Assembly (NCBI GenBank): GCA_905478415.1
Contig: CAJQIG010000002.1
Location: forward strand, 186,699 to 250,698
Direction of reading: 5' to 3'
Source: an uncultured Patescibacteria group bacterium
GTDB taxonomy: Bacteria; Patescibacteriota; Microgenomatia; UBA1400; PJMF01
Length of the DNA stretch: 64,000 nucleotides
This document shows, in pieces, positions 17,743 through 32,371 of the stretch (positions are counted from its first letter, which is position 1; each line of letters opens with the position of its first letter). The notes under the pieces were generated by a model. It was not told where the DNA came from. It ran no database searches and worked only from the letters and a program-made list of their open reading frames with translations. A program made the position numbers and the translations under genes.

Positions 17743-17814
17743 GCCGAAGTGGCTCAGTGGTAGAGCACCATCTTGGTAAGATGGGGGTCACGGGTTCGAT
17801 TCCCGTCTTCGGCT
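17743..17814 (+). tRNA. tRNA-Thr (anticodon GGT)
   Basis: cloverleaf folded by hand: acceptor gccgaag/cttcggc, anticodon loop TTGGTAA, T-loop TTCGATT; no CCA encoded. Confidence 0.85.
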
Positions 17815-17941
17815 CAGAGTGGGTAGTTAACTTGAAAAGTTGCCGATTTGCTCAAGATCAAACTATGTCGAGGTGATATAATTTGTGAAGGTTTCTGGAT
17901 GAATAGTGCAGAGATTTTGTTTTTTAATGTCTTTGAAAGAT

Positions 17942-18023
17942 GCCAGGTTACTCAAGCGGTCAACGAGGACAGACTGTAAATCTGTTGGCTCAGCCTTCGT
18001 AGGTTCGAATCCTACACCTGGCA
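17942..18023 (+). tRNA. tRNA-Tyr (anticodon GTA), class II long variable arm
   Basis: acceptor gccaggt/acctggc, anticodon stem acaga/tctgt with loop CTGTAAA, variable arm ggctcagccttcgt, T-loop TTCGAAT. Confidence 0.85.
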
Positions 18024-18041
18024 CAACTATAATAGTAAGGT

Positions 18042-18115
18042 GCCACCTTAGCTCAGTTGGTTAGAGCGACGGTTTTGTAAACCGTAGGTCCAGGGTTCGA
18101 ATCCCTGAGGTGGCT
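18042..18115 (+). tRNA. tRNA-Thr (anticodon TGT)
   Basis: acceptor gccacct/aggtggc, anticodon loop TTTGTAA, T-loop TTCGAAT. Confidence 0.85.
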
Positions 18116-18192
18116 CAAGCATTTTGACTGGCGTATTTACGCATGGTCATTCGTTTGATATAATACCCGTCTGAAAAGAAAAGAAAGTTAGT

Positions 18193-18393
18193 ATGGCAAG
18201 CAAGAAAAAAGGTCCACGACAACACGTCGGCTTGAAGTGTAAAGAATGTAACGCTTTTGGGTACGTGACCGCATTTAATAAAAATAATGAACAACTTAAG
18301 AAACAAGCAGGAGGTTCTACTTTCCCGCTGAACAAGTACTGCAAAAAGTGTCGCAAGCACACGGAGCATGTACAGTCTAAGAAACTTAAGTAA
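18193..18393 (+). CDS. rpmG: 50S ribosomal protein L33
   Basis: 66 aa; CKECNAFGYVT...CKKCRKHTEH zinc-ribbon pattern. Confidence 0.85.
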   Translation: MASKKKGPRQHVGLKCKECNAFGYVTAFNKNNEQLKKQAGGSTFPLNKYCKKCRKHTEHVQSKKLK

Positions 18394-18417
18394 TCGTTTC
18401 ACCTACATAAAAATTGA

Positions 18418-18446
18418 GAACCGCACTGAAAAGTGCGGTTTTTTGT
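18418..18446 (+). terminator. rho-independent terminator after rpmG
   Basis: aaccgcac-tgaaaa-gtgcggtt followed by ttttt. Confidence 0.6.
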
Positions 18447-18502
18447 ACTGAAAAATAGTAGTAACATCCCATATGATATAATAGGAGTCTTAAATGAGTA
18501 CC

Positions 18503-18532
18503 AGCACCGGCCTTCGCGCCGGTGCTTTTTTT
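18503..18532 (+). terminator. GC-rich hairpin plus T-run (copy 1 of an identical 31-nt element)
   Basis: cagcaccggccttcgcgccggtgcttttttt. Confidence 0.5.
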
Positions 18533-18743
18533 GCTTATATATTGATCTTTTACACCTCATATGATATATTATGAGCTAGTTACATTGCTTTTTAAAATAA
18601 TAACTTTTGGCTACAACAGCGAATACATCATGCTTTTTACGAAGTCTGGGTGTGTTGACTGTTGTGGTCAAGAGTATTGTTACGATTGACTGCACAAAAA
18701 TTTTTTCAACTTTTTCCACCTAATAATCAAAAGGAGCAAGAAA

Positions 18744-19067
18744 ATGGAAAATGAAATGTTGCAGTTAGCTGGTGCTGAGGTTTCAGAACGTGTTGAGTTG
18801 GTAATTGCCGACCCCGAACATGATCGTCACCTGGATCTGTGTGGATTCCTACAAGTCGGACCAACATTGGTGGTCCGGATTCAGGAAGAAACCAGTATCT
18901 ACCAACTCCCCGATGAGTTGGAGTGGGATTGGGACGAGGTCGATTGCGGCCGCGAAACGGCTGGCCAGCTCATGGAGGCTGAGCAACTGCCCTATGAACT
19001 GACCAAGCACTTGGTCATTACAGCAGTCGCCACGAGCATTCTTGAAGCGTTTCTCAGCATGCGGTAG
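18744..19067 (+). CDS. hypothetical protein in a locally GC-rich (~53% GC) segment
   Basis: 107-aa ORF; composition clearly differs from the ~39% GC background; flanked by identical hairpins. Confidence 0.3.
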   Translation: MENEMLQLAGAEVSERVELVIADPEHDRHLDLCGFLQVGPTLVVRIQEETSIYQLPDELEWDWDEVDCGRETAGQLMEAEQLPYELTKHLVITAVATSILEAFLSMR

Positions 19068-19090
19068 AACCTTCAAGCAGCAATGTAGCA

Positions 19091-19121
19091 CAGCACCGGC
19101 CTTCGCGCCGGTGCTTTTTTT
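19091..19121 (+). terminator. GC-rich hairpin plus T-run (copy 2, identical to 18503..18532)
   Basis: cagcaccggccttcgcgccggtgcttttttt. Confidence 0.5.
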
Positions 19122-19124
19122 CGT

Positions 19125-19740
19125 AGCGAGGAAACTCCGGACAGTTCATCCATTGGAGCGAAGCGATAGTGTCCGGGGATGAACGCCTCATAGCACCGAA
19201 GGTGCTATGATGTCATCATGAAAACCCGGAAGTTAAATCATAGTGTGTATAAACACCAATATCACTTGGTATGGGGGACGAAATATCGTCGGAAATTTTT
19301 CAAGAAGTATGTTGGAGATGAATTTGAACATCTTCTATACGAATTAGTTAAAAAGAAGTATCCAGATTTATATATCGAAGCGGTTAATACAGACCAGGAT
19401 CATGTACATATACAGATAGAAATACCACCAACATATGCAGTGTCAGACGTAGTAAAGCGAATAAAATGGCATAGTAGTGTGTACCTCAAGAAGAAGTTCA
19501 AATTTATCGATAGAATGTATATAAATGGAAACATTTGGGGTGTGGGATATTACTCATCAACCATAGGATTGGACGAAGAAACAATTAGAAAATACATAGA
19601 ATATCAGGGGAAAGAAGAAGTCCTCCAGACACCGAGTCTATTTGAATAAAATTTTCATGAGAACTTGACCTTTAGGTCATTGCGAAGCAAATAGGAAACC
19701 CCGGACATTGGCGTAGCTGTCCGGGGAGGACGTCATTTTA
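19125..19740 (+). mobile_element. IS200/IS605-family insertion sequence (tnpA only) with subterminal hairpins
   Basis: left-end hairpin tccggaca...tgtccgggga (19136-19179) and right-end hairpin ccccggaca...tgtccgggg (19699-19727) in the same orientation flank a Y1 HUH transposase gene. Confidence 0.6.
19218..19649 (+). CDS. tnpA: IS200/IS605-family Y1 (HUH) transposase TnpA
   Basis: YHLVWGTKYRRK, HUH motif DHVHIQIEI, catalytic-Tyr region WGVGYYSSTIG; 143 aa. Confidence 0.8.
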   Translation: MKTRKLNHSVYKHQYHLVWGTKYRRKFFKKYVGDEFEHLLYELVKKKYPDLYIEAVNTDQDHVHIQIEIPPTYAVSDVVKRIKWHSSVYLKKKFKFIDRMYINGNIWGVGYYSSTIGLDEETIRKYIEYQGKEEVLQTPSLFE

Positions 19741-19791
19741 CAAAAACCAAAAAACACAACTAGTTTTCTCAAGAAAAACCGCTTAGTGGTA

Positions 19792-21108
19792 TTATTTTAC
19801 CGATTTTACAACTTTTATGATATGTTGGGCGCCGTGTGTGAGTGACGTGGGGAGGGCGTGAGCGTTGAGCATAGCTTGTTCAATCCATGAATGTTGTTTA
19901 CCACGGGTTGAAAGTAAGCTTTCGAGCTGAGGCACAATTGAGTCCAAGACAATTCGACGACCAATTTGTTTTTGTTCGAATACTTCACGAATTCGTTCTT
20001 CCCACGGTCCCCATTCGTCCAGTGTCAGCAAAAAGCTGCCGGCAGCAGCTGCATCGTAGGCCATATCGCCGGAAGGTTTGGTGATAAAACCATCGGCCCA
20101 TGGGAAGCCGTAGGTTTGGAGTTTTTCATTCGCGTCTACAATCTGTGGATGGTAGAGAACCCGGAGTGGGGCATTTTTATCTGTTTCATCAAATACTTTG
20201 ACACGGTGTTTTTTTGCGAGTTCGAGTACACTTTTATAAATATCTTCGTGCGTGCCACAGTAGATGAGCAAACTGAGTTTTCGGGTTTTTCTTCTAAGCT
20301 CTGGCAGTAGTTGTTCGAGCGCAATCAGTAGTTCTGGCTTGTTGGTTCCAAGTCCGCCAGTAGTGAGGCAAAGTTTGAGAATTCCACTGCGGTGAGGATG
20401 TTTTGTTTCTTTGGCTTTGAGGGTGCGAGGGTCGATGGGGGCGCCAGTGACAAAAATTCTACTTGGTTCGGCCGCTATCCCAAGCAACGCTGCTTTTTCG
20501 AGAAACTCTGTTTTGGTATTTTCATCAAACACACAGAAGTACATATTTTTTCTATATGAGTTGGTGACGTACTCATCCCGAACATGAGGATCAGTAATGA
20601 CCTGGACGATAGTTTTACCTTGAGAAGCCAAAATATTTCCTGCCGCAATATGAAGTGACAGAATAGGATGTTTAATTCCGGCTGTGACGTATAAAAGTGG
20701 GGGAGTAATACTATCAAGAATCGGTAGCTTACTACGTCCAAACCTGTCAATAAAGGCTTTAATGGTCTGGAGAATACTGTACCGAGCAATAGTCTTGCCA
20801 ATTTCTTCGGTGAGCACAATTGATTTCCAATCTTTTTTGGAAACATAATTCGTTGGGTCAAGGACCCAAGCTTTGGTGTGATCAACTTTTTTGCCCCAAG
20901 CCGCCGTAGCGATTGCTAGAGCCATGGAGTAGTGAGCTCTAGAGAACACAATATCGGGGGTATCGTCCCGAGCGGGGAGGCCATGCATTTCTTTTAGATC
21001 CTCTTTGTAGCTGCTCGAAACGGTGATGATTGGGACTTCAGTTTTTTCGAGAAAGAGCTTATCTTCTTTGAGTGTTTTAATGAGGAAGGGGTCGAATAGT
21101 TCGGGCAT
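19792..21108 (-). CDS. glycosyltransferase, MGDG-synthase/UgtP-like (GT28-like)
   Basis: C-terminal PWADGFITKPSGDMAYDAAAAG resembles the Glyco_tran_28_C / diacylglycerol glycosyltransferase C-terminus; 438 aa. Confidence 0.45.
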   Translation of the reverse strand: MPELFDPFLIKTLKEDKLFLEKTEVPIITVSSSYKEDLKEMHGLPARDDTPDIVFSRAHYSMALAIATAAWGKKVDHTKAWVLDPTNYVSKKDWKSIVLTEEIGKTIARYSILQTIKAFIDRFGRSKLPILDSITPPLLYVTAGIKHPILSLHIAAGNILASQGKTIVQVITDPHVRDEYVTNSYRKNMYFCVFDENTKTEFLEKAALLGIAAEPSRIFVTGAPIDPRTLKAKETKHPHRSGILKLCLTTGGLGTNKPELLIALEQLLPELRRKTRKLSLLIYCGTHEDIYKSVLELAKKHRVKVFDETDKNAPLRVLYHPQIVDANEKLQTYGFPWADGFITKPSGDMAYDAAAAGSFLLTLDEWGPWEERIREVFEQKQIGRRIVLDSIVPQLESLLSTRGKQHSWIEQAMLNAHALPTSLTHGAQHIIKVVKSVK

Positions 21109-23497: not shown

Positions 23498-24115
23498 ATG
23501 AGTGAGAACCCCCTGGATAGGATAAAATATAGGCAGTTCCAAAACACCTTAGAGAACAGAGGTGGAAGCGAGACGATTATTCGTAGTATGTCTAACATAC
23601 TAAAAAAGATGGCGGAAAATAACGTTTCGACAGTATTTTTTCTTGATCGATCAGCAAGACCTTTGGCCTATTTAGCCAAGGAAATGTGGCAGGTTATGTA
23701 CCAGGGACGTGAATTTCCCGCGGTACGATTCATAAATATTGGAAAAGAGACGAGTCAAAAAGATATTAATCAATCTGGTGGAGTAGGTGATATCTATTCG
23801 ATTCCAGACGATGGCACTATAATGATTATTGACGAATTTGTGATGCATGGGCACTCTCTCAGGAGAGCCAAAGAGCTCTTAGATAAGTCTTTTCCTAATA
23901 GAGAATTTATTACCATTTCACCGTACTTACATGAATTTAGAGAGTTGCCGGCGATCTTCAAGGGTATTGAAGACAGGTCAGTTGAAGGTCCGATGAAGTT
24001 TGTTGCGCAGCCTCACTCAGATCAAAGTTCAGTTGAAGCACGAATAAAATTGAGGAAATACCTCAAGGAGTTTGTCAAAAATAATGCTGAAAAAATTAAG
24101 GAGACTACGGAGTGA
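23498..24115 (+). CDS. phosphoribosyltransferase-fold hypothetical protein
   Basis: TIMIIDEFVMHGHSL resembles the PRTase type-I PRPP-binding motif. Confidence 0.3.
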   Translation: MSENPLDRIKYRQFQNTLENRGGSETIIRSMSNILKKMAENNVSTVFFLDRSARPLAYLAKEMWQVMYQGREFPAVRFINIGKETSQKDINQSGGVGDIYSIPDDGTIMIIDEFVMHGHSLRRAKELLDKSFPNREFITISPYLHEFRELPAIFKGIEDRSVEGPMKFVAQPHSDQSSVEARIKLRKYLKEFVKNNAEKIKETTE

Positions 24116-24123
24116 CTAATTTT

Positions 24124-24154
24124 GCGGGGACTAGTGACGGATGTTCGAACCTAT
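24124..24154 (+). repeat. cassette-boundary repeat R1 (degenerate copy of the tRNA-Trp 3' end)
   Basis: gcggggactagtgacggatgttcgaacctat; reverse complement ggttcgaacatccgtcactagtccccgc aligns with the tRNA-Trp 3' end ggttcgattccctctggccctgc. Confidence 0.6.
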
Positions 24155-24155
24155 A

Positions 24156-24419
24156 TCAGTATTGATCATGGTTTACTAAATCAAAAAAGATGTAAACATC
24201 ATCTTCTTTAATTGCCAATGCTCTCAAATCTCCTTTTATTCGAATAGCATACTGACTAGATCTTTCACCTTTTAATCTATGCAAACGCAACCCCATATGA
24301 TAGGGATTTTCTTTAAATTTTTTAAACTGTTTTCTAAAAATTTTATCCAAAAGAGGATTTTTATTCTTAAACTTTACTACTTTTCTCTTAAATGACTCTG
24401 TATAAACAACTTTTATCAT
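24156..24419 (-). CDS. type II toxin, RelE/ParE superfamily
   Basis: 87 aa; RLHRLKGERSSQYAIRIKGDLRALAIKEDDVYIFFDLVNHDQY matches the RelE-family C-terminal pattern; overlaps the upstream antitoxin by 4 nt. Confidence 0.55.
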   Translation of the reverse strand: MIKVVYTESFKRKVVKFKNKNPLLDKIFRKQFKKFKENPYHMGLRLHRLKGERSSQYAIRIKGDLRALAIKEDDVYIFFDLVNHDQY

Positions 24420-24673
24420 AAAGAGTCAAAAAATTCATCAACATTAATCATTTCGTGGGTTTTTCCCAAACGATGCTCTTCCAAAGCCTTTAAGCCACTT
24501 TCTTCTGTTTTCTTACTCATTTTAAAAGTTGGAACTTCATTTTTCAAAATTTCTTCTGAGGCTTTACTTATAAAAAAACGAATAGTTTTGGGTAAATTAT
24601 ACCCAAATTGAGAACCATAATTTTTTAAAAGGGTAGCTTCTTGAGTTGTAAGAGTTAATTGAACTTTAGTCAT
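24416..24673 (-). CDS. putative antitoxin
   Basis: 85-aa ORF immediately upstream of and translationally coupled to the toxin. Confidence 0.4.
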   Translation of the reverse strand: MTKVQLTLTTQEATLLKNYGSQFGYNLPKTIRFFISKASEEILKNEVPTFKMSKKTEESGLKALEEHRLGKTHEMINVDEFFDSL

Positions 24674-24738
24674 ATGTATTAGTATTATATTATAAAATCA
24701 TTGTTTTGTAAATACTTTAATACTACTTTTGATATTTC

Positions 24739-24769
24739 TTGGGGATTAGTGAAGGATGTTCGAACCTAT
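24739..24769 (+). repeat. cassette-boundary repeat R2
   Basis: ttggggattagtgaaggatgttcgaacctat; abuts the stop codon of the YoeB-like gene. Confidence 0.6.
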
Positions 24770-25044
24770 TTGTACACCTGATCATGAGTTCCAAAACTAA
24801 AAAAAACAATTTTAGACATGTTTCCATCCTGATTATAGTAATAAAGTAATCGATGGGACATATCTACAGAAATACTCCAACTCTCTCTTTGACCTCCGCT
24901 CAATTTGTGGAGTCGTAATGACGGATGATTTTTGTTCTGTTCGAACAATACTAACTGCTTTTTAATTTTTGTGAATAACTGTGTATCGTTTTTTTTAACT
25001 CTTTGCAATTGCTTCAAACATTTTGGTGAAAACGCAATTTCCAT
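24766..25044 (-). CDS. yoeB: type II toxin, YoeB/Txe family
   Basis: HPSLRLHKLSGGQRESWSISVDMSHRLLYYY...FGTHDQVY matches the YoeB pattern (KHNLSGFWSRRI..EHRLVY..RYHY). Confidence 0.65.
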   Translation of the reverse strand: MEIAFSPKCLKQLQRVKKNDTQLFTKIKKQLVLFEQNKNHPSLRLHKLSGGQRESWSISVDMSHRLLYYYNQDGNMSKIVFFSFGTHDQVYK

Positions 25045-25046
25045 TG

Positions 25047-25307
25047 CTATAGATCCTGGAGCAACTTGCCAACGTCATTAGTTTGGATTAAATCTCCAGT
25101 TTTTTCTGCCTCTACAGCCTCTTTAAGATCGTTAGTTGATTGACTGGACATTTCAAAAACAGGATAGTCAACGTCTTGAACATCATTTATCACTAAATTT
25201 CTGATGTAAGCTGATAAGCTAAGACCGTATTTATTAGCTTTAGTCTGCAAGTAACCTTGCAACTGGACTGGTAATGTAACTCTAATTTGAGTAGTTTGTG
25301 TTTGCAT
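25047..25307 (-). CDS. putative antitoxin paired with the YoeB-like toxin
   Basis: 86 aa; 2-nt gap to the toxin gene; IRVTLPVQLQGYL N-terminus. Confidence 0.45.
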   Translation of the reverse strand: MQTQTTQIRVTLPVQLQGYLQTKANKYGLSLSAYIRNLVINDVQDVDYPVFEMSSQSTNDLKEAVEAEKTGDLIQTNDVGKLLQDL

Positions 25308-25370
25308 AAAGCCATTATAGTCTAATTAAAGCATTTATCAAGTACTAATCAAGGCTATTTTGTGTACTTT

Positions 25371-25401
25371 TCAGGGCCTAGTGAAAAATGTTGGAACCCA
25401 T
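25371..25401 (+). repeat. cassette-boundary repeat R3
   Basis: tcagggcctagtgaaaaatgttggaacccat; reverse complement contains ggccctg identical to the tRNA-Trp acceptor 3' strand. Confidence 0.6.
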
Positions 25402-25429
25402 ATCAACTGTAAGTACATGACTTCATTTG

Positions 25430-26032
25430 CTATTTATCAAAAACAACAACAATGCCATCAATGCTTTTCTTAAATTCAGAACATCTTTGATCATTATATC
25501 TTTGGGTGATTTTATCCATTACTTTGGAATCAACCCCGTTAAATTCCCAAGAATCACTTAGCCTGCTGCTAAAAAATAATGTATCGAATTTAATGACAAT
25601 TTTAAGTGTTTTTAAACTATCAGGTGAAAGATTAAAAAACCAATGAATTAAATCATTAAAAGCAGCATGATGACAACCTTCTACAGGAGTTGTTTCCCCA
25701 CCCATTAACATTACTTCCAATAAACTTGCCCCATCTTTTGACAATAATGCCGTTAAGTCTTCGGGGTTGATAATATCATAGTCATGACCATATTTTTTTC
25801 GTCTTTCTAAAGCAATATTGGGATGATTGTTGAGATAGCTAGAGACAACATGTGGAGCATTTACATATAGACCCCAATGTGCATCTTTTGACTTAAAACC
25901 TGTTACACATATATTTAAATTATACCTTTGATCATCAAAAATTGCTTGCATAGCCTCTCGAGCAGGTTCTTTATAATAAACTTCTCTAATAGGGTGTATT
26001 GCTAAAGCAACGCTTAGATTTTCATTTAACAT
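25430..26032 (-). CDS. hypothetical protein (cassette cargo)
   Basis: 200-aa ORF, no recognisable motif. Confidence 0.4.
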   Translation of the reverse strand: MLNENLSVALAIHPIREVYYKEPAREAMQAIFDDQRYNLNICVTGFKSKDAHWGLYVNAPHVVSSYLNNHPNIALERRKKYGHDYDIINPEDLTALLSKDGASLLEVMLMGGETTPVEGCHHAAFNDLIHWFFNLSPDSLKTLKIVIKFDTLFFSSRLSDSWEFNGVDSKVMDKITQRYNDQRCSEFKKSIDGIVVVFDK

Positions 26033-26107
26033 ATTTACCTCTATTCTCTTCTAAAATATCTGTTTATATTTTTAATTCAGCATTCAGCAAACTTATATAA
26101 TAAATAC

Positions 26108-26142
26108 AAGGGGCTTGTTACTTGAGGGATGTTCGAACCTAT
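26108..26142 (+). repeat. cassette-boundary repeat R4 (5' half diverged)
   Basis: ggggcttgttacttgagggatgttcgaacctat. Confidence 0.5.
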
Positions 26143-26152
26143 TTTAAGCTCG

Positions 26153-26806
26153 TCACTTCTTCCTAGCAACCACCACAAAATATTTTAATACTCCAAAATA
26201 GCGAAGTGTTTTTTCTTCAACTACTATATTGCCCGCAGCCTTTATGTAATTTGATAGCTCTTTTTGTTTATACATCACATCATAAGGATGATCTAATATT
26301 ATTCTAAGAAGTTTACCTAGCGGAGATTCAAACGTTTCAATTGAAAAATCCTCCATAATTATCAGTCCCTTAGGTTTTAAAGTTCTCGTTATCTCTTTAA
26401 CTGCTTTCTTCCATTCTGGAATGTGATGAAGAACTCCAAAGTCAAACACTGCATCAAAGGTATTGTCTTTGAACGGCAATTTTGTCGTACTTGCTACTTG
26501 AAAATCAATGTTTTTATTAGAATACTTTCCTTGAGCGATACTAATCATTTTTGAATCAAGGTCAGTAGCAATGATTTTTCTGGGAGAAAAGTGCTTCATG
26601 ATAAGTTGACTACCATATCCACTACCACATCCAATTTCTAATGTCTTATTTATCTTCCCTGGATTAACTAACTTTCTGAGTCGTGGTATCTCCAAAGTAC
26701 TTTGAAACAACCGACGCATTGGGTTATTCATTAGTAGGAATTCAATAGTATTGAGAATCATGAATGTAGTATACCATGTGATTAAAAAGAAACCATTTAT
26801 AGGCAA
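26153..26806 (-). CDS. class I SAM-dependent methyltransferase (true start possibly at an internal Met near 26731)
   Basis: LEIGCGSGYGSQ motif I and downstream methyltransferase motifs. Confidence 0.65.
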   Translation of the reverse strand: MPINGFFLITWYTTFMILNTIEFLLMNNPMRRLFQSTLEIPRLRKLVNPGKINKTLEIGCGSGYGSQLIMKHFSPRKIIATDLDSKMISIAQGKYSNKNIDFQVASTTKLPFKDNTFDAVFDFGVLHHIPEWKKAVKEITRTLKPKGLIIMEDFSIETFESPLGKLLRIILDHPYDVMYKQKELSNYIKAAGNIVVEEKTLRYFGVLKYFVVVARKK

Positions 26807-26819
26807 ATATTGCTGTTTT

Positions 26820-26850
26820 GCAGGGATTAGTGAACTATGTTGGAACCTAT
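26820..26850 (+). repeat. cassette-boundary repeat R5
   Basis: gcagggattagtgaactatgttggaacctat; starts with gcaggg as does the plus-strand tRNA-Trp 3' end. Confidence 0.6.
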
Positions 26851-26851
26851 T

Positions 26852-27178
26852 TTACCTTTCTCGTAAAACAAAACTCAATTTAATACTATCGTTTAACTCA
26901 ACTTTTTCTTTGTTTCTAACCTTTACTGGTAATGCAATGAAGTGTGTACCATCACCCATAGGGAGAAATGATGTTTTCCAACTACTGCTACCTACTTTTG
27001 CAGTTATAGCTACCAAACCCCTATCTAAAAGATGTTTAGTCTCATTCGTATATTTTTTAGGAACTCTCACATAATGCCAACCCTTTTTTTGGGGAAATAG
27101 TTCTACTTTTCCAGATATTGCAAATTTTTTCTTGGTTAATAATGGGGTCAAATTAGACATATAAAAAATATAGCCCAA
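26852..27178 (-). CDS. hypothetical protein (cassette cargo)
   Basis: 108-aa ORF. Confidence 0.4.
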   Translation of the reverse strand: MGYIFYMSNLTPLLTKKKFAISGKVELFPQKKGWHYVRVPKKYTNETKHLLDRGLVAITAKVGSSSWKTSFLPMGDGTHFIALPVKVRNKEKVELNDSIKLSFVLRER

Positions 27179-27180
27179 AT

Positions 27181-27510
27181 TTACATCTCATGAACAGGAT
27201 AAACACTCACCGTACTACCATCGTTATCCATTATCACTGGATGATCTTTTAATAAAGACTGGGCTGCTTCTAGGCTCTCAGCTTGAACTATTCCATATCC
27301 TGTTACATCATCTTCTTGAAGCTTTGAACCATCAACAGAAGTCACATGTTGAGGCCCAACTGGATTTCCAAAATCAACTACAGCATCAACATGAGTTTCT
27401 TTCCACTTCATCCAAACACCCATAACTCCTTGTACTTCTTCTTCTGACATTGACGCAAATTTTTCCATTGCTTCTTTAGGTGAGTGATAAATTAGAAGAA
27501 ACTTTTTCAT
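27181..27510 (-). CDS. hypothetical protein, possibly a YciI/Dabb-like alpha/beta barrel
   Basis: 109 aa; MKKFLLIYHSP...GYGIVQAESLEAAQSLLKDHPV pattern. Confidence 0.35.
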   Translation of the reverse strand: MKKFLLIYHSPKEAMEKFASMSEEEVQGVMGVWMKWKETHVDAVVDFGNPVGPQHVTSVDGSKLQEDDVTGYGIVQAESLEAAQSLLKDHPVIMDNDGSTVSVYPVHEM

Positions 27511-27552
27511 AGCGTGATCCTTTACTACATGTTTTTATTCTTTATCTTAACA

Positions 27553-27573
27553 TAATTTAGAACCTAATTTATT
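27553..27573 (+). repeat. weak sixth copy of the cassette-boundary repeat (R6)
   Basis: ataatttagaacctaatttat vs consensus ..atgttsgaacctatttta. Confidence 0.25.
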
Positions 27574-27623
27574 GGGGATAAGTTAACAAAAAAAGAACTA
27601 TAAATAGCTCTAATTCAAAACTG

Positions 27624-27694
27624 CAGGGCCAGAGGGAATCGAACCCCCGTCAAAGGTTTTGGAGACCTCTATTCTACCGCTGAACTATGGCCCT
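27624..27694 (-). tRNA. tRNA-Trp (anticodon CCA)
   Basis: acceptor agggcca/tggccct, anticodon loop CTCCAAA, T-arm ggggg-ttcgatt-ccctc. Confidence 0.85.
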
Positions 27695-27808
27695 ACGTTG
27701 AGTTGTTAACGTTCAAATTGTATCATTAAGTGCTAGGTTTGCGGAGTAGAGGATTCGATTTTTTAGGCCTGTATCTTGAGAAATTTGCGGATGTTTGGTT
27801 AGCAACAC

Positions 27809-27837
27809 TTGACATAACATTAGTTATAGGATATAAT
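27809..27837 (+). promoter_or_regulatory. consensus sigma70 promoter (TTGACA-17-TATAAT) preceding a ~230-nt leader
   Basis: perfect hexamers; next ORF starts at 28080. Confidence 0.55.
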
Positions 27838-28079
27838 GAAAAGTGTTGTGAGAGCGTACAGCAGACACTTCGTCTGCAACTACCTCGAGCAATACTGAAC
27901 CTTAACAGAATACTTACTTTTGTCTCCTTTAGACAGAAAGGACCGCGTATTTGTTGGAATCACCATAGGGTGAAACAGAGGTGTTACTCGAGAGAGTGGC
28001 GCTTGTGTTTCACTCTATTGTTTTGAGACCAGCGATTTTGTTGGTTTCCTTTTTGTTAATATTTTAAGGAGATAGAAAA

Positions 28080-28646
28080 ATGCAGGCATTCACTATTCAA
28101 ACAAATGGCGAAACAAAAAAAGGTATCCGCGTAGAACGTTTTGAAAAAACGGGAGCATATCAGATCAGCGTGCTGAAAGGCCGTCGTCCGGTTTTTGTCC
28201 CAATTTTCAAACGTAATCAGATTGTTGGAGAAGGACCTCTTGGTTACCAAATTTTGGAAGCCGGTATTTGGTCTGATTCTCAGACAGGTCGAGTAAAACT
28301 GCAAAATCCAAAAAATGATGCGTGGGAAGCCAGCCGAAACTTGGTTAGTTTGCGCGTGTATTTTGCCGAAGGAGCAGAGTTAGAAATTGCTCCGCCGGTT
28401 GATTCCGCAAGTTTGCCTCTGGCTGTGGCCTATGACCAGATGCGTAATGGCCGGCAGTATTGCGACCTAGTCGCGGTATTGAAGGCCGGCGAGAAGGTTC
28501 GTTTCATCGAGCACGCCCGTATGGGTGTCAAGGTCGTCAAGACCTTGTTGACCGATGAGAACGGAATCCCGCAACTGGTCGACGGGGATGTCCCCGAACC
28601 AGCGATGATGCAAGCCCTGGCCGAAGTCGCGGCTGCAACCAAGTAA
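28080..28646 (+). CDS. hypothetical protein
   Basis: 188-aa ORF; C-terminal half GC-rich. Confidence 0.4.
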   Translation: MQAFTIQTNGETKKGIRVERFEKTGAYQISVLKGRRPVFVPIFKRNQIVGEGPLGYQILEAGIWSDSQTGRVKLQNPKNDAWEASRNLVSLRVYFAEGAELEIAPPVDSASLPLAVAYDQMRNGRQYCDLVAVLKAGEKVRFIEHARMGVKVVKTLLTDENGIPQLVDGDVPEPAMMQALAEVAAATK

Positions 28647-28659
28647 GTATCTGAAAAAG

Positions 28660-28692
28660 GAAAGGCCCTAGTTTTACACTGGGGCCTTTTTG
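28660..28692 (+). terminator. rho-independent terminator
   Basis: aaaggccc...gggccttttt. Confidence 0.55.
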
Positions 28693-28776
28693 CGTCTCAA
28701 ACCCAATCGCCACCAATCTCAAGTATTTTGTTCAAAACTAGCGTATACTACAGTTGTATCAATCTATATCACTAGT

Positions 28777-29694
28777 ATGCCAAAACCATTAGAACAAGAC
28801 CAAGTAACCAAGTTCACAACTTTGTGGCAAGGTTTCCATATCAAGAAAAATGACTCAGCTCAGGCCGCCGACCAGGCAGCTGAAGCTCTTCATGCTCTCG
28901 ATACAGAAAACTTTACCAACACAGAAGTTGCTACTGCGCATGGAGAACTTTCCAGAATAACTGCGGTCTTAGCTCTGAGTGCAGTCAAAAAAGCTAAAAA
29001 TTGGGAGGAAGCTCGTCAATATTTGCTTCTTTCCCTCGAGACAGTGCAGACAAGCTATCCAGTAGCAAAAACCTATGATCAAGCTAAAATCAGGGGAGAG
29101 TACTGGAATCCGGTGTATGGTGAAAGCTGGGCCCAGTTGAGTGCGCTCATGGATGTTCTCGAGTTGGCAAAAGTACTCGTGGTGCTGTACCCCGAAGCCG
29201 AATCGTTTGCTTATTTTAGAGCGGTTCATGAGGCTTTGTTCACAATCATTGCTGATACAGAGAAAAACCGGGAAATACTGGTTTTGATGATCAAACACGG
29301 TGAGTTTGAGTTGGCTCAAGAGGCATACCAAGAGTACCAGAGCTTGTATGGGCCAGAGTCTAAAGCTTTTAGCCCAGACCAGTGGATTACGTTAACCACC
29401 TTGATGATTGGGCAGTTCTTTGGTCACTCTCAAGTTGCAGAGGCCAGAAAGCTTTCTGGAGAACTTGGGAAGGTCTTGATACACCAGAAGGGAATGTCTT
29501 TTTTTGGGATCAGGGAGTTTTTTAAGAATATGTCACCCTCCAGAGGACAAAGACAGCTGGATTCAAAGTTGATTGGTTGGTACTCGGAAGGTGTCAAAAC
29601 TGATCCCGACGTCAGAAAACAAGTAGAAGCGCTTTTCGACCATGTCTTTGTTGGTGTGGGCGAAGAGGTTCAGTATCTCAATACTAAAGAATAA
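28777..29694 (+). CDS. hypothetical protein (start at internal Met)
   Basis: ~305-aa helical ORF. Confidence 0.4.
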   Translation: MPKPLEQDQVTKFTTLWQGFHIKKNDSAQAADQAAEALHALDTENFTNTEVATAHGELSRITAVLALSAVKKAKNWEEARQYLLLSLETVQTSYPVAKTYDQAKIRGEYWNPVYGESWAQLSALMDVLELAKVLVVLYPEAESFAYFRAVHEALFTIIADTEKNREILVLMIKHGEFELAQEAYQEYQSLYGPESKAFSPDQWITLTTLMIGQFFGHSQVAEARKLSGELGKVLIHQKGMSFFGIREFFKNMSPSRGQRQLDSKLIGWYSEGVKTDPDVRKQVEALFDHVFVGVGEEVQYLNTKE

Positions 29695-29916
29695 GCGAGT
29701 CTTCGTTTTTGTTTCGGTTTTTCAATAAAAGTGATTATTATATCAATTTGAAACCATAAAATACTCAAAATAATTAAAAAACATTTATAAATCAATATAT
29801 TATATTTTTCATAAAAACTGAAAAAGAGTGCTTTATTAATAAAAAAGTTACGTTATCTAACTTCGGAACATCACAATAACAGTGAAAAAAATTGGTTTTT
29901 ATTTGGGTACAAACGA

Positions 29917-30570
29917 CTATTCGTCGAATCCAAGGTTCTTCTGTTCAGCTGCAACAGTAGTTGTTTCTCCGTGCCCAGACAGCAGTTGAGTGTTTCCAGG
30001 GTACTCGAGAAGTTTTTTGAGTGAACGCTCCAGATCAAGGGTGTTTGAGTATGAAAAATCAGTTCGACCGACCCCGTTTTTAAAGATGGTGTCACCACAA
30101 AAAATATGGACATCATCTGGTGCAACCGTGGAGACAAAACTGACACTACCAGGAGTGTGACCTGGTGTTTCGATGGTCGTCAGGGAACAGTTGCCAAAGG
30201 AAAAGGTACTACCTGCCCTGAGGAAGTTGGTTGGTTGGGGCACGGGGTCCGCCTGACGATGTAACCAGTGTTCAGCGCTGTCTTTTGCCCCCTTTATGAG
30301 AAAGAGGTCAGCTTGGTGTAAGAAAATAGGGATATCATCAAAGTTAAGTTTCACTTCTAAGAGGCCGAGGACATGGTCGAAGTGACCATGGGTGAGGAGT
30401 ATGGCGGTGGGTTGAAGTCCAAGACGCAGGATTTCTTCCGAGATGGTATCACCTGCATCAGCGGGGTCGATAATCACTGCCTCGAGTGTGTCTGGGCACC
30501 AGGCTAGGTAGCAATTGGTATCGAGTGCACCAAGGGTGAGAGTAGTTACGGTGGGGTGTTTGAACTTCAT
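29917..30570 (-). CDS. MBL-fold metallo-hydrolase (glyoxalase II-like)
   Basis: THGHFDHVLG zinc-binding motif; the ORF-track first codon is TTG, so ATG at MKFKH is preferred. Confidence 0.7.
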   Translation of the reverse strand: MKFKHPTVTTLTLGALDTNCYLAWCPDTLEAVIIDPADAGDTISEEILRLGLQPTAILLTHGHFDHVLGLLEVKLNFDDIPIFLHQADLFLIKGAKDSAEHWLHRQADPVPQPTNFLRAGSTFSFGNCSLTTIETPGHTPGSVSFVSTVAPDDVHIFCGDTIFKNGVGRTDFSYSNTLDLERSLKKLLEYPGNTQLLSGHGETTTVAAEQKNLGFDE

Positions 30571-30586
30571 GCGGTACAATGCAGAT

Positions 30587-31219
30587 ATGACTATTTACTT
30601 CGATATTGATTCTACCTTATTTACGACCAATCTGTTCAAGAAAACAAAAATCGATCCACAACTCGAAGAGTTACTGGGCGTGAGTTTAGAAACATTGCAG
30701 GAGTCTGAAAAAGCATACTTCACTGGACTGGAAAAGGGCACAGACTTCGATTTTCACAATTACTGTGCTTTTATAGCCGAAAAATTCAATGATGTCGGAG
30801 GCAGTGCCTCGAAAGAGCAACTTGAAAAACTTTTCGAGGACCAGGCTTTATATGAGGGGATGGTCTATCCAGACGTATTTCCAACACTCCAACTTCTACA
30901 AGATCGAGGAGATTCGATTGGTATTTTTTCTGAAGGACATACCGATTTTCAAACAAATAAAATTACTTTTACTGGGGTGATGACCTTTGCTGATCCCACA
31001 AAAGTCCATATTGCTCGAAGAAAATTGGAGCCGGAAGTGCTTTCAAAGTTAGAAGCAGGGGCGATTGTGATTGATGACAAAATTGAGTATCTTGAGAATC
31101 TACCAGAAACACTCACTCCAGTTTGGATTAATCGAACCTCAGAAGAAAAACATTCGACTATTGCTACAATTAAATCACTTGAGGAGATTACTCAGTTTTT
31201 ACTTAATAAAAAGGATTAA
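30587..31219 (+). CDS. HAD-family hydrolase
   Basis: MTIYFDIDSTLF motif I (DxD). Confidence 0.55.
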   Translation: MTIYFDIDSTLFTTNLFKKTKIDPQLEELLGVSLETLQESEKAYFTGLEKGTDFDFHNYCAFIAEKFNDVGGSASKEQLEKLFEDQALYEGMVYPDVFPTLQLLQDRGDSIGIFSEGHTDFQTNKITFTGVMTFADPTKVHIARRKLEPEVLSKLEAGAIVIDDKIEYLENLPETLTPVWINRTSEEKHSTIATIKSLEEITQFLLNKKD

Positions 31220-31220
31220 G

Positions 31221-31718
31221 ATGTCAATATTTGAGAGAAGACAAGGAATTGATCAAGGAAAGAAGTTTGAGCTTCCTTCTTTGAGACCTGGATTGCAAGC
31301 TTTACTAGTACCTTCACTTGAAGCAGAAAAGTTTGGATTAAAAAACCCAAATCTTGAAATCCAACAGCTTATACAGACAGTAAGTGAGTTACTTATAGAA
31401 AAAAACTCTGAATTACAGACTACCGTTGCTTTGGGTGGGGTAGATGGTGGATTTGTGGGACTGCTCATTGTGGTTAGAAACCAGGATGATACACCACCAG
31501 TTGAAAATGTTGGCAATACACAACGAATAGAAACAGTTTTAATTGAGTCAAAGCTGGCGAAAGCCTGGGGTTCTCGAGATATTTTGGGTGAATTGACTGA
31601 AGCGCTAGACACAAAGCTTCAGACCTTACCAGAAAGCACCGAGCTTATCTCAATAAATGCAGTACCCTCTCCATCAGGAAGAACAATTGGTTTAGTGTTA
31701 GTGATAAAAAATTCTTAG
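31221..31718 (+). CDS. hypothetical protein
   Basis: 165-aa ORF starting at the ATG 2 nt after the HAD stop. Confidence 0.4.
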   Translation: MSIFERRQGIDQGKKFELPSLRPGLQALLVPSLEAEKFGLKNPNLEIQQLIQTVSELLIEKNSELQTTVALGGVDGGFVGLLIVVRNQDDTPPVENVGNTQRIETVLIESKLAKAWGSRDILGELTEALDTKLQTLPESTELISINAVPSPSGRTIGLVLVIKNS

Positions 31719-32371
31719 CCAACCAGAATTGAAACGATCATCGAAATAATCGGACTAATCAGCGTAGCTACTGCTGAGGTTCCATTCCAAGGCACTATCA
31801 ACATCAAAAGCACAACTGAACCATATCGATGCATAAACGACTCATATGCTAACGCATTTTCTGGAGGCAATATCGACTCGAGGATTTTTGATCCATCGAG
31901 CGGATAGACTGGTACTAAGTTGAAAATTGCGAGCATGACGTTGATATATAAAATAAAGTACAAAGCGGGAGCAAGGAGTGTGCTAAAAAAGACTCCAGCA
32001 GGTAAAAAATTGAGCACCAGCGCGAGTAGTACGGCAAGTATGAGGTTGCTAGCAGGGCCTGCGAGTGCAATTAAGGCAGTGTCACGTTTAGGATCTTTTA
32101 AGTTAAAGGGATCGAACTGGACGGGTTTTCCCCAGCCAAAGCCGATTAGTAGAATTGCGAGTGTTCCCATGGGATCAAGATGAGCGAGTGGATTAAGAGT
32201 GACTCTGCCCTGATAGGTAGGGGTAGGATCACCAAGCTTATCTGCTACGAATGCATGGGCAAACTCGTGAATTGTGAGGGCAACAACCAGGCCAATAGCA
32301 CTGATAAAGAAGAGTAGGGGGTTAGTGAAGAGGGTTGCAAGCATCATACGTTTGGCCATTATAGCAGTCAA
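31715..32371 (-). CDS. M50-family (site-2 protease-like) membrane zinc metalloprotease
   Basis: HEFAHAFVA HExxH motif within a TM segment; multiple TM helices. Confidence 0.65.
   Translation of the reverse strand: MTAIMAKRMMLATLFTNPLLFFISAIGLVVALTIHEFAHAFVADKLGDPTPTYQGRVTLNPLAHLDPMGTLAILLIGFGWGKPVQFDPFNLKDPKRDTALIALAGPASNLILAVLLALVLNFLPAGVFFSTLLAPALYFILYINVMLAIFNLVPVYPLDGSKILESILPPENALAYESFMHRYGSVVLLMLIVPWNGTSAVATLISPIISMIVSILVG

What the first reader, a model, noticed from the sequence alone, without database searches (positions are those of the whole stretch)
18440..19745. IS200-type tnpA element beside a GC-rich passenger ORF bracketed by two identical GC-hairpin terminators
A 143-aa Y1 HUH transposase (YHLVWGTKYRRK, HVHIQI, GVGYYSST) is flanked by same-orientation imperfect hairpins sharing the arm TGTCCGGGGA. 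That is the typical IS200/IS605 left-end and right-end architecture. Immediately upstream, a 107-aa ORF sits in a ~53% GC segment, against ~39% elsewhere. The ORF is bracketed by two perfectly identical 31-nt elements, cagcaccggccttcgcgccggtgcttttttt, at 18503 and 19091. The whole block is inserted between rpmG and a glycosyltransferase. The GC anomaly plus the duplicated hairpin suggests foreign passenger DNA that arrived with, or is being mobilised by, the IS. The hairpin may be a REP-like mobile structure.
Basis: seen in the sequence. Interest (0 to 1): 0.55.

Follow-up and report, generated by a model that had tools for sequence, protein, structure and literature searches.

The report
IS200 insertion beside older orphan gene
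A small, ordinary IS200-type jumping gene landed in the T-tail of the terminator of an older small gene found only in two sister Patescibacteria species, so the two are neighbours by accident and the gene is not cargo of the transposon.

Summary

The IS is a 619-bp tnpA-only IS200-group element (window ~19121-19739). A second, identical copy lies ~110 kb away on the same scaffold. That copy splits a small membrane-protein gene and carries neither ORF107 nor the hairpin.

A sister species (neighbour gene 93% identical) has an ORF107 homologue (60% aa identity), the identical hairpin and the same downstream gene, with no IS. This is an empty site: the IS inserted 3' of a T-run in the terminator tail.

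More distant relatives (74-85%) have rpmG directly convergent with the 438-aa gene and nothing in between.

ORF107 is a real, fast-evolving, acidic orphan gene (omega ~0.15; only two family members found; no fold match). It has its own promoter and terminator. The upstream promoter-box plus hairpin is a partial duplicate of that unit. The hairpin is not REP-like: it was found only at this locus.

The result is an ordinary IS next to an orphan gene of unknown function, so interest is low.

The parts
18193..18393 (+). rpmG (ribosomal protein L33), the ancestral left neighbour. Its promoter TGATATAAT is at 18156-18164.
   Evidence: Pfam PF00471. Same gene in relatives L101, L102, L104 and L108. 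Promoter scan.
18419..18446 (+). rpmG intrinsic terminator (AACCGCACT-GAAA-AGTGCGGTT + T-run). It marks the end of the ancestral sequence on the left.
   Evidence: Fold -17.7 kcal/mol, z -5.8. The stem is conserved in L101.
18460..18487 (+). P1: promoter-like box. It contains the host-consensus extended -10 TGATATAAT at 18474-18482 and is a partial duplicate of P2.
   Evidence: Repeat families D1 and D3. Only 2 copies in the window, 0 expected. TGATATAAT occurs 6 times against 0.57 expected, including upstream of rpmG (18156) and 68 nt upstream of tRNA-Tyr (17874).
18502..18532 (+). H1: upstream copy of the 31-nt terminator hairpin (9-bp stem, 6-nt loop, T7).
18548..18575 (+). P2: promoter-like box for ORF107 (-35 TTGATC at 18542-18547, TG-extended -10 TATATT at 18565-18570).
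18576..18743 (+). ORF107 5' leader with a Shine-Dalgarno AAGGAG at 18731-18736. The last 48 nt are ~85% conserved in the sister species.
   Evidence: Sequence. Alignment with L105. No Rfam match.
18744..19067 (+). ORF107: acidic (pI 4.1) 107-aa orphan protein. GC at codon positions 1/2/3 is 0.67/0.33/0.56.
   Evidence: Codon log-likelihood 0.286, within the host-gene range. Homologue P0122 at 60% identity, with in-frame indels only and omega ~0.15. No hit in Pfam, PHROGs, PADLOC, NCBIfam, phages or plasmids. AlphaFold2 pLDDT 76 but no fold match.
19091..19121 (+). H2: terminator hairpin of ORF107, 24 nt after its stop codon. Its T-tail was the IS target.
   Evidence: H2 and the 11 nt upstream of it are identical in the sister species L105 and L109, apart from one extra T in the sister's tail.
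19121..19739 (+). IS200-group insertion sequence, 619 bp. The left boundary is uncertain by about 1 nt because of the T-runs.
   Evidence: The 614-nt core is 100% identical to copy 2 in L012, and the flanks diverge exactly at the T-runs. Empty site in L105 and L109.
19135..19178 (+). IS left-end subterminal imperfect palindrome (CTCCGGACA ... TGTCCGGGG), preceded by AGGAAAC.
   Evidence: ssDNA fold, z -4.2.
19178..19217 (+). Second left-end hairpin, abutting the tnpA start codon. It resembles the translation-repressing stem-loop in the IS200 5'UTR.
   Evidence: Fold. IS200 precedent in PMC4513863. Function here is inferred.
19218..19649 (+). tnpA: Y1 HUH transposase, 143 aa (HUH = HVHIQI; catalytic Tyr in IRKYIEYQ).
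19699..19726 (+). IS right-end subterminal palindrome (CCCCGGACA ... TGTCCGGGG), preceded by AGGAAAC. The element ends 13 nt later at ...GTCATTTT.
   Evidence: ssDNA fold, z -3.3. Boundary.
19740..19791 (.). Intergenic spacer downstream of the convergent 438-aa gene. TTTCTCAAGAAAAACCGCTTAG is identical in the sister species (L105); L108 has a similar stretch.
19792..21108 (-). 438-aa conserved Patescibacteria hypothetical protein, the ancestral right neighbour.
   Evidence: 924 homologues, the named ones labelled Woesebacteria, Pacebacteria or Patescibacteria. No family hit.

Best explanation
Two unrelated things sit side by side.

(1) An older, lineage-specific transcription unit. It was inserted between the convergent genes rpmG and the 438-aa gene in the common ancestor of two sister Patescibacteria species. 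It consists of promoter P2, a ~170-nt leader with a Shine-Dalgarno site, ORF107 (a fast-evolving acidic 107-aa protein of unknown function under purifying selection) and the intrinsic terminator H2. Its atypical GC3 (0.55 against a host value of 0.36) points to a foreign, unsampled source. Just upstream lies a gutted partial duplicate of the same unit: the P1 box, 14 nt, then H1. This explains the two identical hairpins. The hairpin sequence is constrained, so both copies have stayed identical while the promoter boxes have drifted to 83% identity.

(2) A 619-bp IS200-group element (tnpA only) that arrived much later. It inserted by single-strand peel-and-paste transposition, 3' of a TTTT in the T-tail of H2. 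It lies on the strand that serves as lagging-strand template and made no target duplication. It left the terminator, and both neighbouring genes, intact. A sister copy inserted 3' of GCTTTT inside a small membrane-protein gene ~110 kb away.

Shown: the anatomy, the IS boundaries, the second copy, the empty site, the absence in more distant relatives, and selection on ORF107.

Inferred: foreign origin of the unit, the duplication-then-deletion origin of P1-H1, the TTTT target rule (based on only two insertions), and the function of the IS hairpins.
For: IS identity: Y1_Tnp and the IS200 equivalog. HUH and Tyr align with IS608 TnpA. Same-strand subterminal hairpins at both ends, each preceded by AGGAAAC.

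IS boundaries and independence from the ORF:
- Copy 2 in L012 shares a 100% identical 614-nt core.
- Its flanks are a split membrane-protein ORF, with no ORF107 and no hairpin.
- Reading-frame repair of the split gene (180 aa) requires an element of 619 bp.

Empty site: L105 and L109 read ORF homologue, identical hairpin, T8, then directly AC... and the end of the 438-aa gene.

Absence in relatives: L101 (85%), L108 (84%), L106/L107 (80%), L102 (78%) and L104 (74%) have rpmG directly convergent with the 438-aa gene.

ORF107 is real and old:
- In-frame GC pattern and a codon score of 0.286, equal to host genes.
- Conserved Shine-Dalgarno site and ATG.
- Indels only in whole codons.
- pN 0.238 against pS 0.695, giving omega ~0.15.
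- pS is similar to that of the neighbouring gene (0.648).

Other points:
- IS GC is 0.394, about the host value.
- + strand GC skew is +0.11 across the whole window, so the IS top strand is on the lagging-strand template. This is the family's known bias (PMC5027513).
- The IS is present at this site in every contig of the species.
- The hairpin is not repeated elsewhere.
Against: - The origin of the P1-H1 partial duplicate is not shown. The sister-species contigs stop 48 nt upstream of the ATG, so it is unknown whether P1-H1 predates the split.
- H2 and the 11 nt before it are identical between species whose synonymous sites are saturated, apart from one extra T in the sister's tail. A terminator alone does not need that much conservation, so the hairpin may have an additional sequence-specific role.
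- GC3 of ~0.55 in both species after saturating divergence needs either a very GC-rich donor or selection that maintains GC. It may not be a simple relic of horizontal transfer.
- The target rule rests on two insertions and is blurred by T-runs.
- ORF107 function remains unknown.
Confidence: 0.8

Rival explanations
1. ORF107 and its hairpins are passenger DNA that came in with the IS, or is mobilised by it, for example through use of an alternative upstream left end.
For: The two are physically adjacent, the ORF has atypical GC, and the whole 1.35-kb block is missing in relatives at 85% identity or below.
Against: - Copy 2 of the IS lacks the ORF and the hairpin, and identity between the copies stops exactly at the T-runs.
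- The sister species has the ORF and the hairpin without the IS.
- ORF synonymous divergence equals that of the neighbouring gene, whereas the IS copies are identical.
- No TnpA-type hairpin (CCGGACA...TGTCCGG) lies upstream of ORF107.
Confidence: 0.03
2. The 31-nt palindrome (9-6-9 plus a T-run) is a mobile or recombinogenic structure rather than just a terminator. It could be REP-like, or an attC/dif-like site at which the 589-bp ORF107 cassette was integrated in trans, leaving one copy on each side.
For: - Exact direct repeats bracket a compositionally foreign cassette.
- The arms-plus-6-nt-spacer layout resembles tyrosine-recombinase core sites (a resemblance recalled from memory).
- The hairpin and the 11 nt before it are invariant between species whose neutral sites are saturated.
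- GTAG lies 2 nt upstream of H2, as in REP elements (sequence).
Against: - Only two copies, both at this locus, were found in the window and in the JGI metagenomes.
- The ORF family has two members, both at the same locus, so there is no sign of mobility.
- No RAYT, integrase or attC core (GTTRRRY) is present in the element.
- The same stem with a T-run occurs singly in 82 unrelated genomes with varied loops, which marks it as a generic terminator design.
- H2 sits 24 nt after a stop codon and has a T7 tail.
Confidence: 0.07
3. P1-H1 is not a relic but a working part. It could be a ~40-nt small transcript, or a promoter-proximal attenuator or insulator that controls read-through from rpmG and P1 into ORF107.
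For: P1 carries a perfect host-consensus TGATATAAT. H1 is an intact strong terminator. The arrangement is identical in all sampled populations.
Against: - The leader is only ~14 nt, which is too short for a sensor.
- There is no Rfam match.
- No comparative data exist for this segment.
- The populations sampled are nearly clonal, so identity among them says little.
- This reading is compatible with, and not exclusive of, an origin by duplication.
Confidence: 0.2
4. ORF107 is not a gene. It is a chance open frame in a GC-rich non-coding insert, for example a fragment of foreign DNA or a structured RNA.
For: There is no homologue outside two sister species, no domain and no fold match. GC-rich DNA in an AT-rich genetic-code context often leaves long open frames: an 80-aa antisense ORF also exists.
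Against: - Frame-specific GC1/2/3 pattern and a codon score equal to host genes. The antisense and +1 frames score at or below 0.
- Omega ~0.15, with 60% amino-acid identity retained while synonymous sites are saturated.
- Indels only in whole codons.
- Start codon and Shine-Dalgarno site are conserved.
- The AlphaFold2 model reaches pLDDT 76 with two sequences.
Confidence: 0.05

Closest known systems
IS200 group of the IS200/IS605 family (for example Salmonella IS200, 707 bp). The mechanism is known from IS608 and ISDra2.
   Same: - A single tnpA gene encoding a ~140-aa Y1 HUH transposase.
- No terminal inverted repeats.
- Same-strand subterminal hairpins at both ends.
- Insertion 3' of a short specific sequence without target duplication.
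- Top strand on the lagging-strand template.
- Two hairpins in the left end, one abutting the tnpA start, as in IS200 (PMC5934647, PMC5027513, PMC4513863).
   Different: - Shorter (619 bp) than the classic 707-bp IS200.
- The host is a Patescibacteria (CPR) genome.
- The apparent target and cleavage motif is a T-run (TTTT), not TTAC or TTGAT.
- No antisense sRNA or Hfq site was examined.
- The TnpA sequence shows only distant similarity to the solved TnpAs (E 1e-12 to 1e-16).
Phage 'moron'-type autonomous transcription unit (own promoter, one ORF, own intrinsic terminator, deviant base composition). The concept is recalled from the phage literature and was not checked here.
   Same: The ORF107 unit has a promoter-like box, one small ORF and a strong terminator. 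It lies between two ancestrally adjacent genes and has a deviant GC content.
   Different: It is not in a recognisable prophage. There are no PHROG or phage tblastn hits. It carries an extra upstream promoter-plus-terminator duplicate.
REP elements with RAYT (TnpA_REP)
   Same: A GC-rich palindrome next to a Y1 HUH gene. GTAG lies 2 nt upstream of H2.
   Different: There are two copies rather than tens to hundreds. The TnpA is an IS200 equivalog with its own, different end hairpins. The hairpin has a T7 tail and sits directly after a stop codon.
Rho-independent (intrinsic) terminators
   Same: A 9-bp GC-rich stem, a 6-nt loop and a T7 tail. H2 lies 24 nt after the ORF107 stop codon. The same stem design recurs independently in 82 unrelated genomes.
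   Different: It is duplicated exactly within 589 nt. The sequence, including the loop and the 11 nt upstream, is invariant between two species that have diverged to saturation.

Membership tests
IS200/IS605 family, IS200 group | Encodes a Y1 HUH single-strand transposase (TnpA) with an HUH motif and a C-terminal catalytic Tyr. | tested here: met
   PF01797 E 9e-31. NF033573 equivalog 110.8 bits against a cutoff of 55. Alignment to IS608 TnpA (2a6m) puts HVH on the HIH motif and Y in IRKYIEYQ on Y127.
IS200/IS605 family, IS200 group | No terminal inverted repeats. Instead, subterminal imperfect palindromes at the left and right ends on the same strand. | tested here: met
   Left end 19135-19178 and right end 19699-19726 both have the form C(T/C)CCGGACA...TGTCCGGGG on the + strand. 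ssDNA fold z-scores are -4.2 and -3.3.
IS200/IS605 family, IS200 group | Inserts 3' of a short specific target without target-site duplication. The right end finishes with a related cleavage motif. | tested here: met
   Two insertions, both after GC+T-run. The right end finishes in ATTTT. The empty site in L105 and L109 shows no duplicated bases beyond the T-run ambiguity. This rests on only two copies, so the exact motif is provisional.
IS200/IS605 family, IS200 group | A guide tetranucleotide 5' of each hairpin foot pairs with the cleavage site. | tested here: inconclusive
   Both hairpins are preceded by AGGAAAC, and the AAA could pair with TTT of the cleavage sites (rule from PMC5934647). 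The pairing geometry cannot be verified from sequence.
IS200/IS605 family, IS200 group | The active (top) strand lies on the lagging-strand template. | tested here: met
   + strand GC skew is +0.09 to +0.14 in seven of the eight 8-kb blocks of the window and +0.02 in 24001-32000. tnpA and the hairpins are on the + strand. The bias is described in PMC5027513. Replication direction is inferred from skew only.
IS200/IS605 family, IS200 group | tnpA alone, with no tnpB or iscB (this distinguishes the IS200 group from the IS605 and IS1341 groups). | tested here: met
   The 619-bp element has one ORF. Its boundaries are set by the two copies.
IS200/IS605 family, IS200 group | Transposition activity. 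| not testable with these tools
   Two 100% identical copies in different contexts imply recent movement. No experiment was possible.
REP / RAYT system | High copy number of the palindrome, dispersed in intergenic regions. | tested here: not met
   Two copies in 64 kb, both at this locus. One JGI contig, from the same locus. None in the other fetched loci of this species. The complete genome was not scanned.
REP / RAYT system | An associated RAYT (TnpA_REP) gene flanked by the REPs. | tested here: not met
   The TnpA is an IS200 equivalog with its own, different end hairpins. Copy 2 has no 31-nt hairpin nearby.
Integron cassette / attC | An attC site with R''/L''-L'/R' boxes (GTTRRRY core), and an IntI integrase with attI nearby. 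| tested here: not met
   The 31-nt element contains no GTTRRRY or RYYYAAC (sequence). No integrase was seen among the neighbouring ORFs examined. The whole window was not searched for IntI.
Intrinsic terminator | A GC-rich stem-loop followed by a U-run, placed just downstream of a stop codon. | tested here: met
   9 bp (7 GC), 6-nt loop, T7, -18 kcal/mol. H2 starts 24 nt after the ORF107 stop codon. Termination activity was not tested.
Phage moron | An independent promoter-ORF-terminator unit of deviant composition, located inside a (pro)phage genome. | tested here: not met
   The unit structure and deviant GC are met. There is no phage context and no PHROG or phage hit. The flanks are rpmG and a conserved chromosomal gene.

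The most novel reading that the evidence does not exclude
The ORF107 unit may be a trans-mobilised mini-cassette. On this reading its invariant 9-6-9 palindrome (plus the conserved 11 nt before it) is a recombination or protein-binding site that leaves one copy on each side of the insert. ORF107 would then be a rapidly evolving, foreign-derived effector, for example an acidic inhibitor or DNA-mimic-like protein used in the episymbiotic lifestyle of Patescibacteria. The evidence does not exclude this. It offers no positive sign of mobility and no functional clue.
Probability: 0.06. Interest if true: 0.6.

Novelty: new member of a known kind. Interest (0 to 1): 0.22.

Why it matters
It matters little beyond annotation. 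It adds a compact (619-bp) IS200-group element with an apparent T-run target in a Patescibacteria genome, and shows an intrinsic-terminator tail serving as a harmless landing site. It also shows that adjacency plus a GC anomaly is not evidence of transposon cargo. The orphan ORF107 is mildly interesting as a lineage-restricted, fast-evolving but selected gene in a reduced CPR genome. Its terminator and 3'UTR are unusually conserved. It currently has no functional handle.

Tried and rejected
- One search was an unfinished script and gave no result.
- Pfam, PHROGs, PADLOC and NCBIfam searches, and tblastn against phages and plasmids, found nothing for ORF107.
- Rfam at gathering threshold and at E<=1 found nothing credible in 18380-19800.
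- A look-up of the window's rpmG protein, meant to reach the sister species' upstream region, failed because the protein is not on record. Whether P1-H1 exists in the sister species is therefore still open.
- A global alignment of unit 1 against unit 2 with cheap gaps over-fitted and added nothing beyond the P box and H.
- The 9-nt complementarity between 18581-18589 and 19079-19087 (I6) is within chance expectation for a 2-kb region, so I did not build on it.
- The genome-contig scan with a degenerate loop did not contain the source genome. It showed only that the stem is a generic terminator design.
Full report
**1. Observation**

- The 31-nt element CAGCACCGGCCTTCGCGCCGGTGCTTTTTTT occurs exactly twice in the 64-kb window, at 18502-18532 and 19091-19121 on the + strand. 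None was found in 100 shuffles.
- Each copy folds into a 9-bp stem (7 GC pairs) with a 6-nt loop and a T7 tail, at about -18 kcal/mol. The terminator scan picks up both.
- ORF 19218-19649 is a 143-aa Y1 transposase. It matches Pfam PF01797 at E 9e-31, and the NCBIfam IS200 equivalog NF033573 at 110.8 bits against a cutoff of 55.
- Alignment to IS608 TnpA places HVHIQI on the HUH motif.
- As single-stranded DNA, both IS ends form same-strand hairpins C(T/C)CCGGACA...TGTCCGGGG, each preceded by AGGAAAC.
- ORF107 (18744-19067) lies in a 0.54-0.56 GC stretch, against a window mean of 0.417. This is one of only two high-GC outliers in the window.
- The first box contains TGATATAAT. This is the same extended -10 that lies upstream of rpmG and of tRNA-Tyr, and it is 10-fold over-represented in the window.

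**2. Where the IS begins and ends, and whether the ORF belongs to it**

The exact TnpA protein is found in two contexts on one 394-kb metagenomic scaffold, ~110 kb apart and in the same orientation.
- Copy 2 (L012) shares a 614-nt core (CGTAGCG...GACGTCA) that is 100% identical with the window copy.
- Identity stops at a T-run on each side.
- Copy 2 splits a small membrane-protein gene into 104-aa and 76-aa halves. Restoring one 180-aa frame requires an element of 614 + 5 T = 619 bp. This places the window copy at ~19121-19739.
- Copy 2 has no ORF107 and no 31-nt hairpin.

So the IS is a tnpA-only, 619-bp IS200-group element. It is inserted after GC+T-run at both sites and ends in ATTTT. Its GC content (0.394) is host-like. 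The + strand has positive GC skew in every 8-kb block of the window (+0.09 to +0.14 in seven blocks, +0.02 in 24001-32000). This puts the IS top strand on the lagging-strand template, the known bias of the family (PMC5027513). Target choice through a guide sequence 5' of the hairpin foot is the known mechanism (PMC5934647). Here AGGAAAC/TTTT is compatible with it but unproven.

**3. Relatives**

The 438-aa neighbour is a conserved hypothetical protein of Patescibacteria; named hits are labelled Woesebacteria, Pacebacteria or Patescibacteria. It has no glycosyltransferase hit.
- In relatives whose neighbour protein is 85, 84, 80, 78 and 74% identical, rpmG and its terminator are followed almost directly by the convergent 438-aa gene. 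There is no ORF107, no hairpin and no IS. The ~1.35 kb at 18446-19791 is therefore lineage-specific.
- An exhaustive HMMER search of 1.84 billion representatives found one true homologue of ORF107: P0122, 106 aa, 60% identity.
- P0122's contig L105, and L109 (neighbour protein 93% identical), read as follows: ORF homologue, the same 11 nt, the identical hairpin with T8, ACCTAAC..., the conserved TTTCTCAAGAAAAACCGCTTAG, then the end of the 438-aa gene. There is no IS.

The IS is present at this site in every contig of the window's own species, from several studies.

**4. What ORF107 is**

The evidence that it is a real, old gene:
- It has a conserved Shine-Dalgarno site and start codon.
- It has a frame-specific GC1/2/3 pattern of 0.67/0.33/0.56.
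- Its codon score (0.286) falls inside the host-gene range (0.18-0.34). The overlapping frames score at or below 0.
- Against the sister species, pN is 0.238 and pS is 0.695, giving omega ~0.15. Indels occur only in whole codons.
- The neighbouring gene has pS 0.648 and pN 0.044.

So ORF107 is a real gene, as old as the species split. It evolves about six times faster at the protein level than its neighbour. Both orthologues keep GC3 near 0.55, against a host value of ~0.37. This fits acquisition from a very GC-rich donor before the split with partial amelioration since, or selection that maintains GC.

The family has just two members. There is no domain, phage, plasmid or defence-system hit. 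The two-sequence AlphaFold2 model (pLDDT 76, alpha-alpha-beta3-alpha-alpha) has no significant structural neighbour. The protein is acidic (pI 4.1) and its function is unknown.

**5. The two hairpins**

- H2 is the terminator of ORF107. It lies 24 nt after the stop codon.
- H2 and the 11 nt before it are identical in the sister species, apart from one extra T in the sister's tail (T8 against T7), although synonymous sites there are saturated. The sequence is therefore constrained.
- H1, together with the P1 box, reproduces the two ends of the unit with only 14 nt between them.
- The promoter boxes have drifted to 83% identity while the hairpins have stayed identical. This fits an older partial duplicate, most simply a tandem duplication followed by loss of the interior. 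It could also be a still-functional short transcript or insulator.

The hairpin is not REP-like.
- All 12 strict terminators in the window have different stems, except this pair.
- A scan of JGI metagenomes for the 26-nt core returned only one contig, from this same locus.
- The stem with a free loop occurs singly in 82 unrelated genomes with many different loops. It is a generic terminator design, not a family.

**6. Verdict**

This is an ordinary IS200-group insertion into the T-tail of the terminator of an older, self-contained orphan gene unit. The cargo and REP-like readings are rejected.

Three things remain open: the function of ORF107, the reason for the strong conservation of its 3' end, and the history of the P1-H1 duplicate.

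Noticed in passing
L007, L008, L010 (for example L007:1914-3959): Contigs from at least three assemblies join the left flank of IS copy 1 (ORF107) through the IS to the right flank of copy 2 (71-aa ORF and the VanW gene). This junction is what a 110-kb IS-mediated tandem duplication or an excised circle would produce. It could equally be an assembly chimera across a 619-bp repeat at low coverage.
   Followed up: partly
L012:2595-3756: IS copy 2 splits a small multi-pass membrane-protein gene into 104-aa and 76-aa halves. Precise removal of a 619-bp element restores one 180-aa frame.
   Followed up: partly
window 28301-28750: This is the only other high-GC outlier in the window (0.56). It lies inside a 188-aa ORF (28080-28646) with no Pfam hit. 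The surrounding 24-30 kb has very low-GC patches (0.26-0.30) and near-zero GC skew, so it may be another island of foreign DNA.
   Followed up: partly
It is a widely conserved Patescibacteria hypothetical protein with more than 900 homologues.
   Followed up: yes
window 18495-18575 and 18561-18689: There are small ORFs in the leader region. One is a 26-codon frame that starts at an ATG 7 nt after an AGGAG and reads through hairpin H1. The other is a 42-aa frame with a Cys-rich C-terminus (SGCVDCCGQEYCYD). No comparative data were available to judge either.
   Followed up: no
window 18581-18589 versus 19079-19087: TACATTGCT, near the predicted 5' end of the ORF107 transcript, is perfectly complementary to AGCAATGTA in the invariant 11 nt before H2. 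This would allow 5'-3' end pairing of the mRNA. A 9-nt match is within chance for this span.
   Followed up: partly
[not shown]
   Followed up: partly
window 18193-18393: The exact rpmG (L33) product is not on record in the public gene-call collection, and it is absent from the gene lists of the contigs that carry this locus. Gene callers evidently missed this short gene there.
   Followed up: no
window 17743-18116: A tRNA-Thr(GGT), tRNA-Tyr(GTA), tRNA-Thr(TGT) cluster lies directly upstream of rpmG. A TGATATAAT box precedes tRNA-Tyr (17874) and another precedes rpmG (18156). The arrangement is conserved in relatives L101, L104 and L108.
   Followed up: partly
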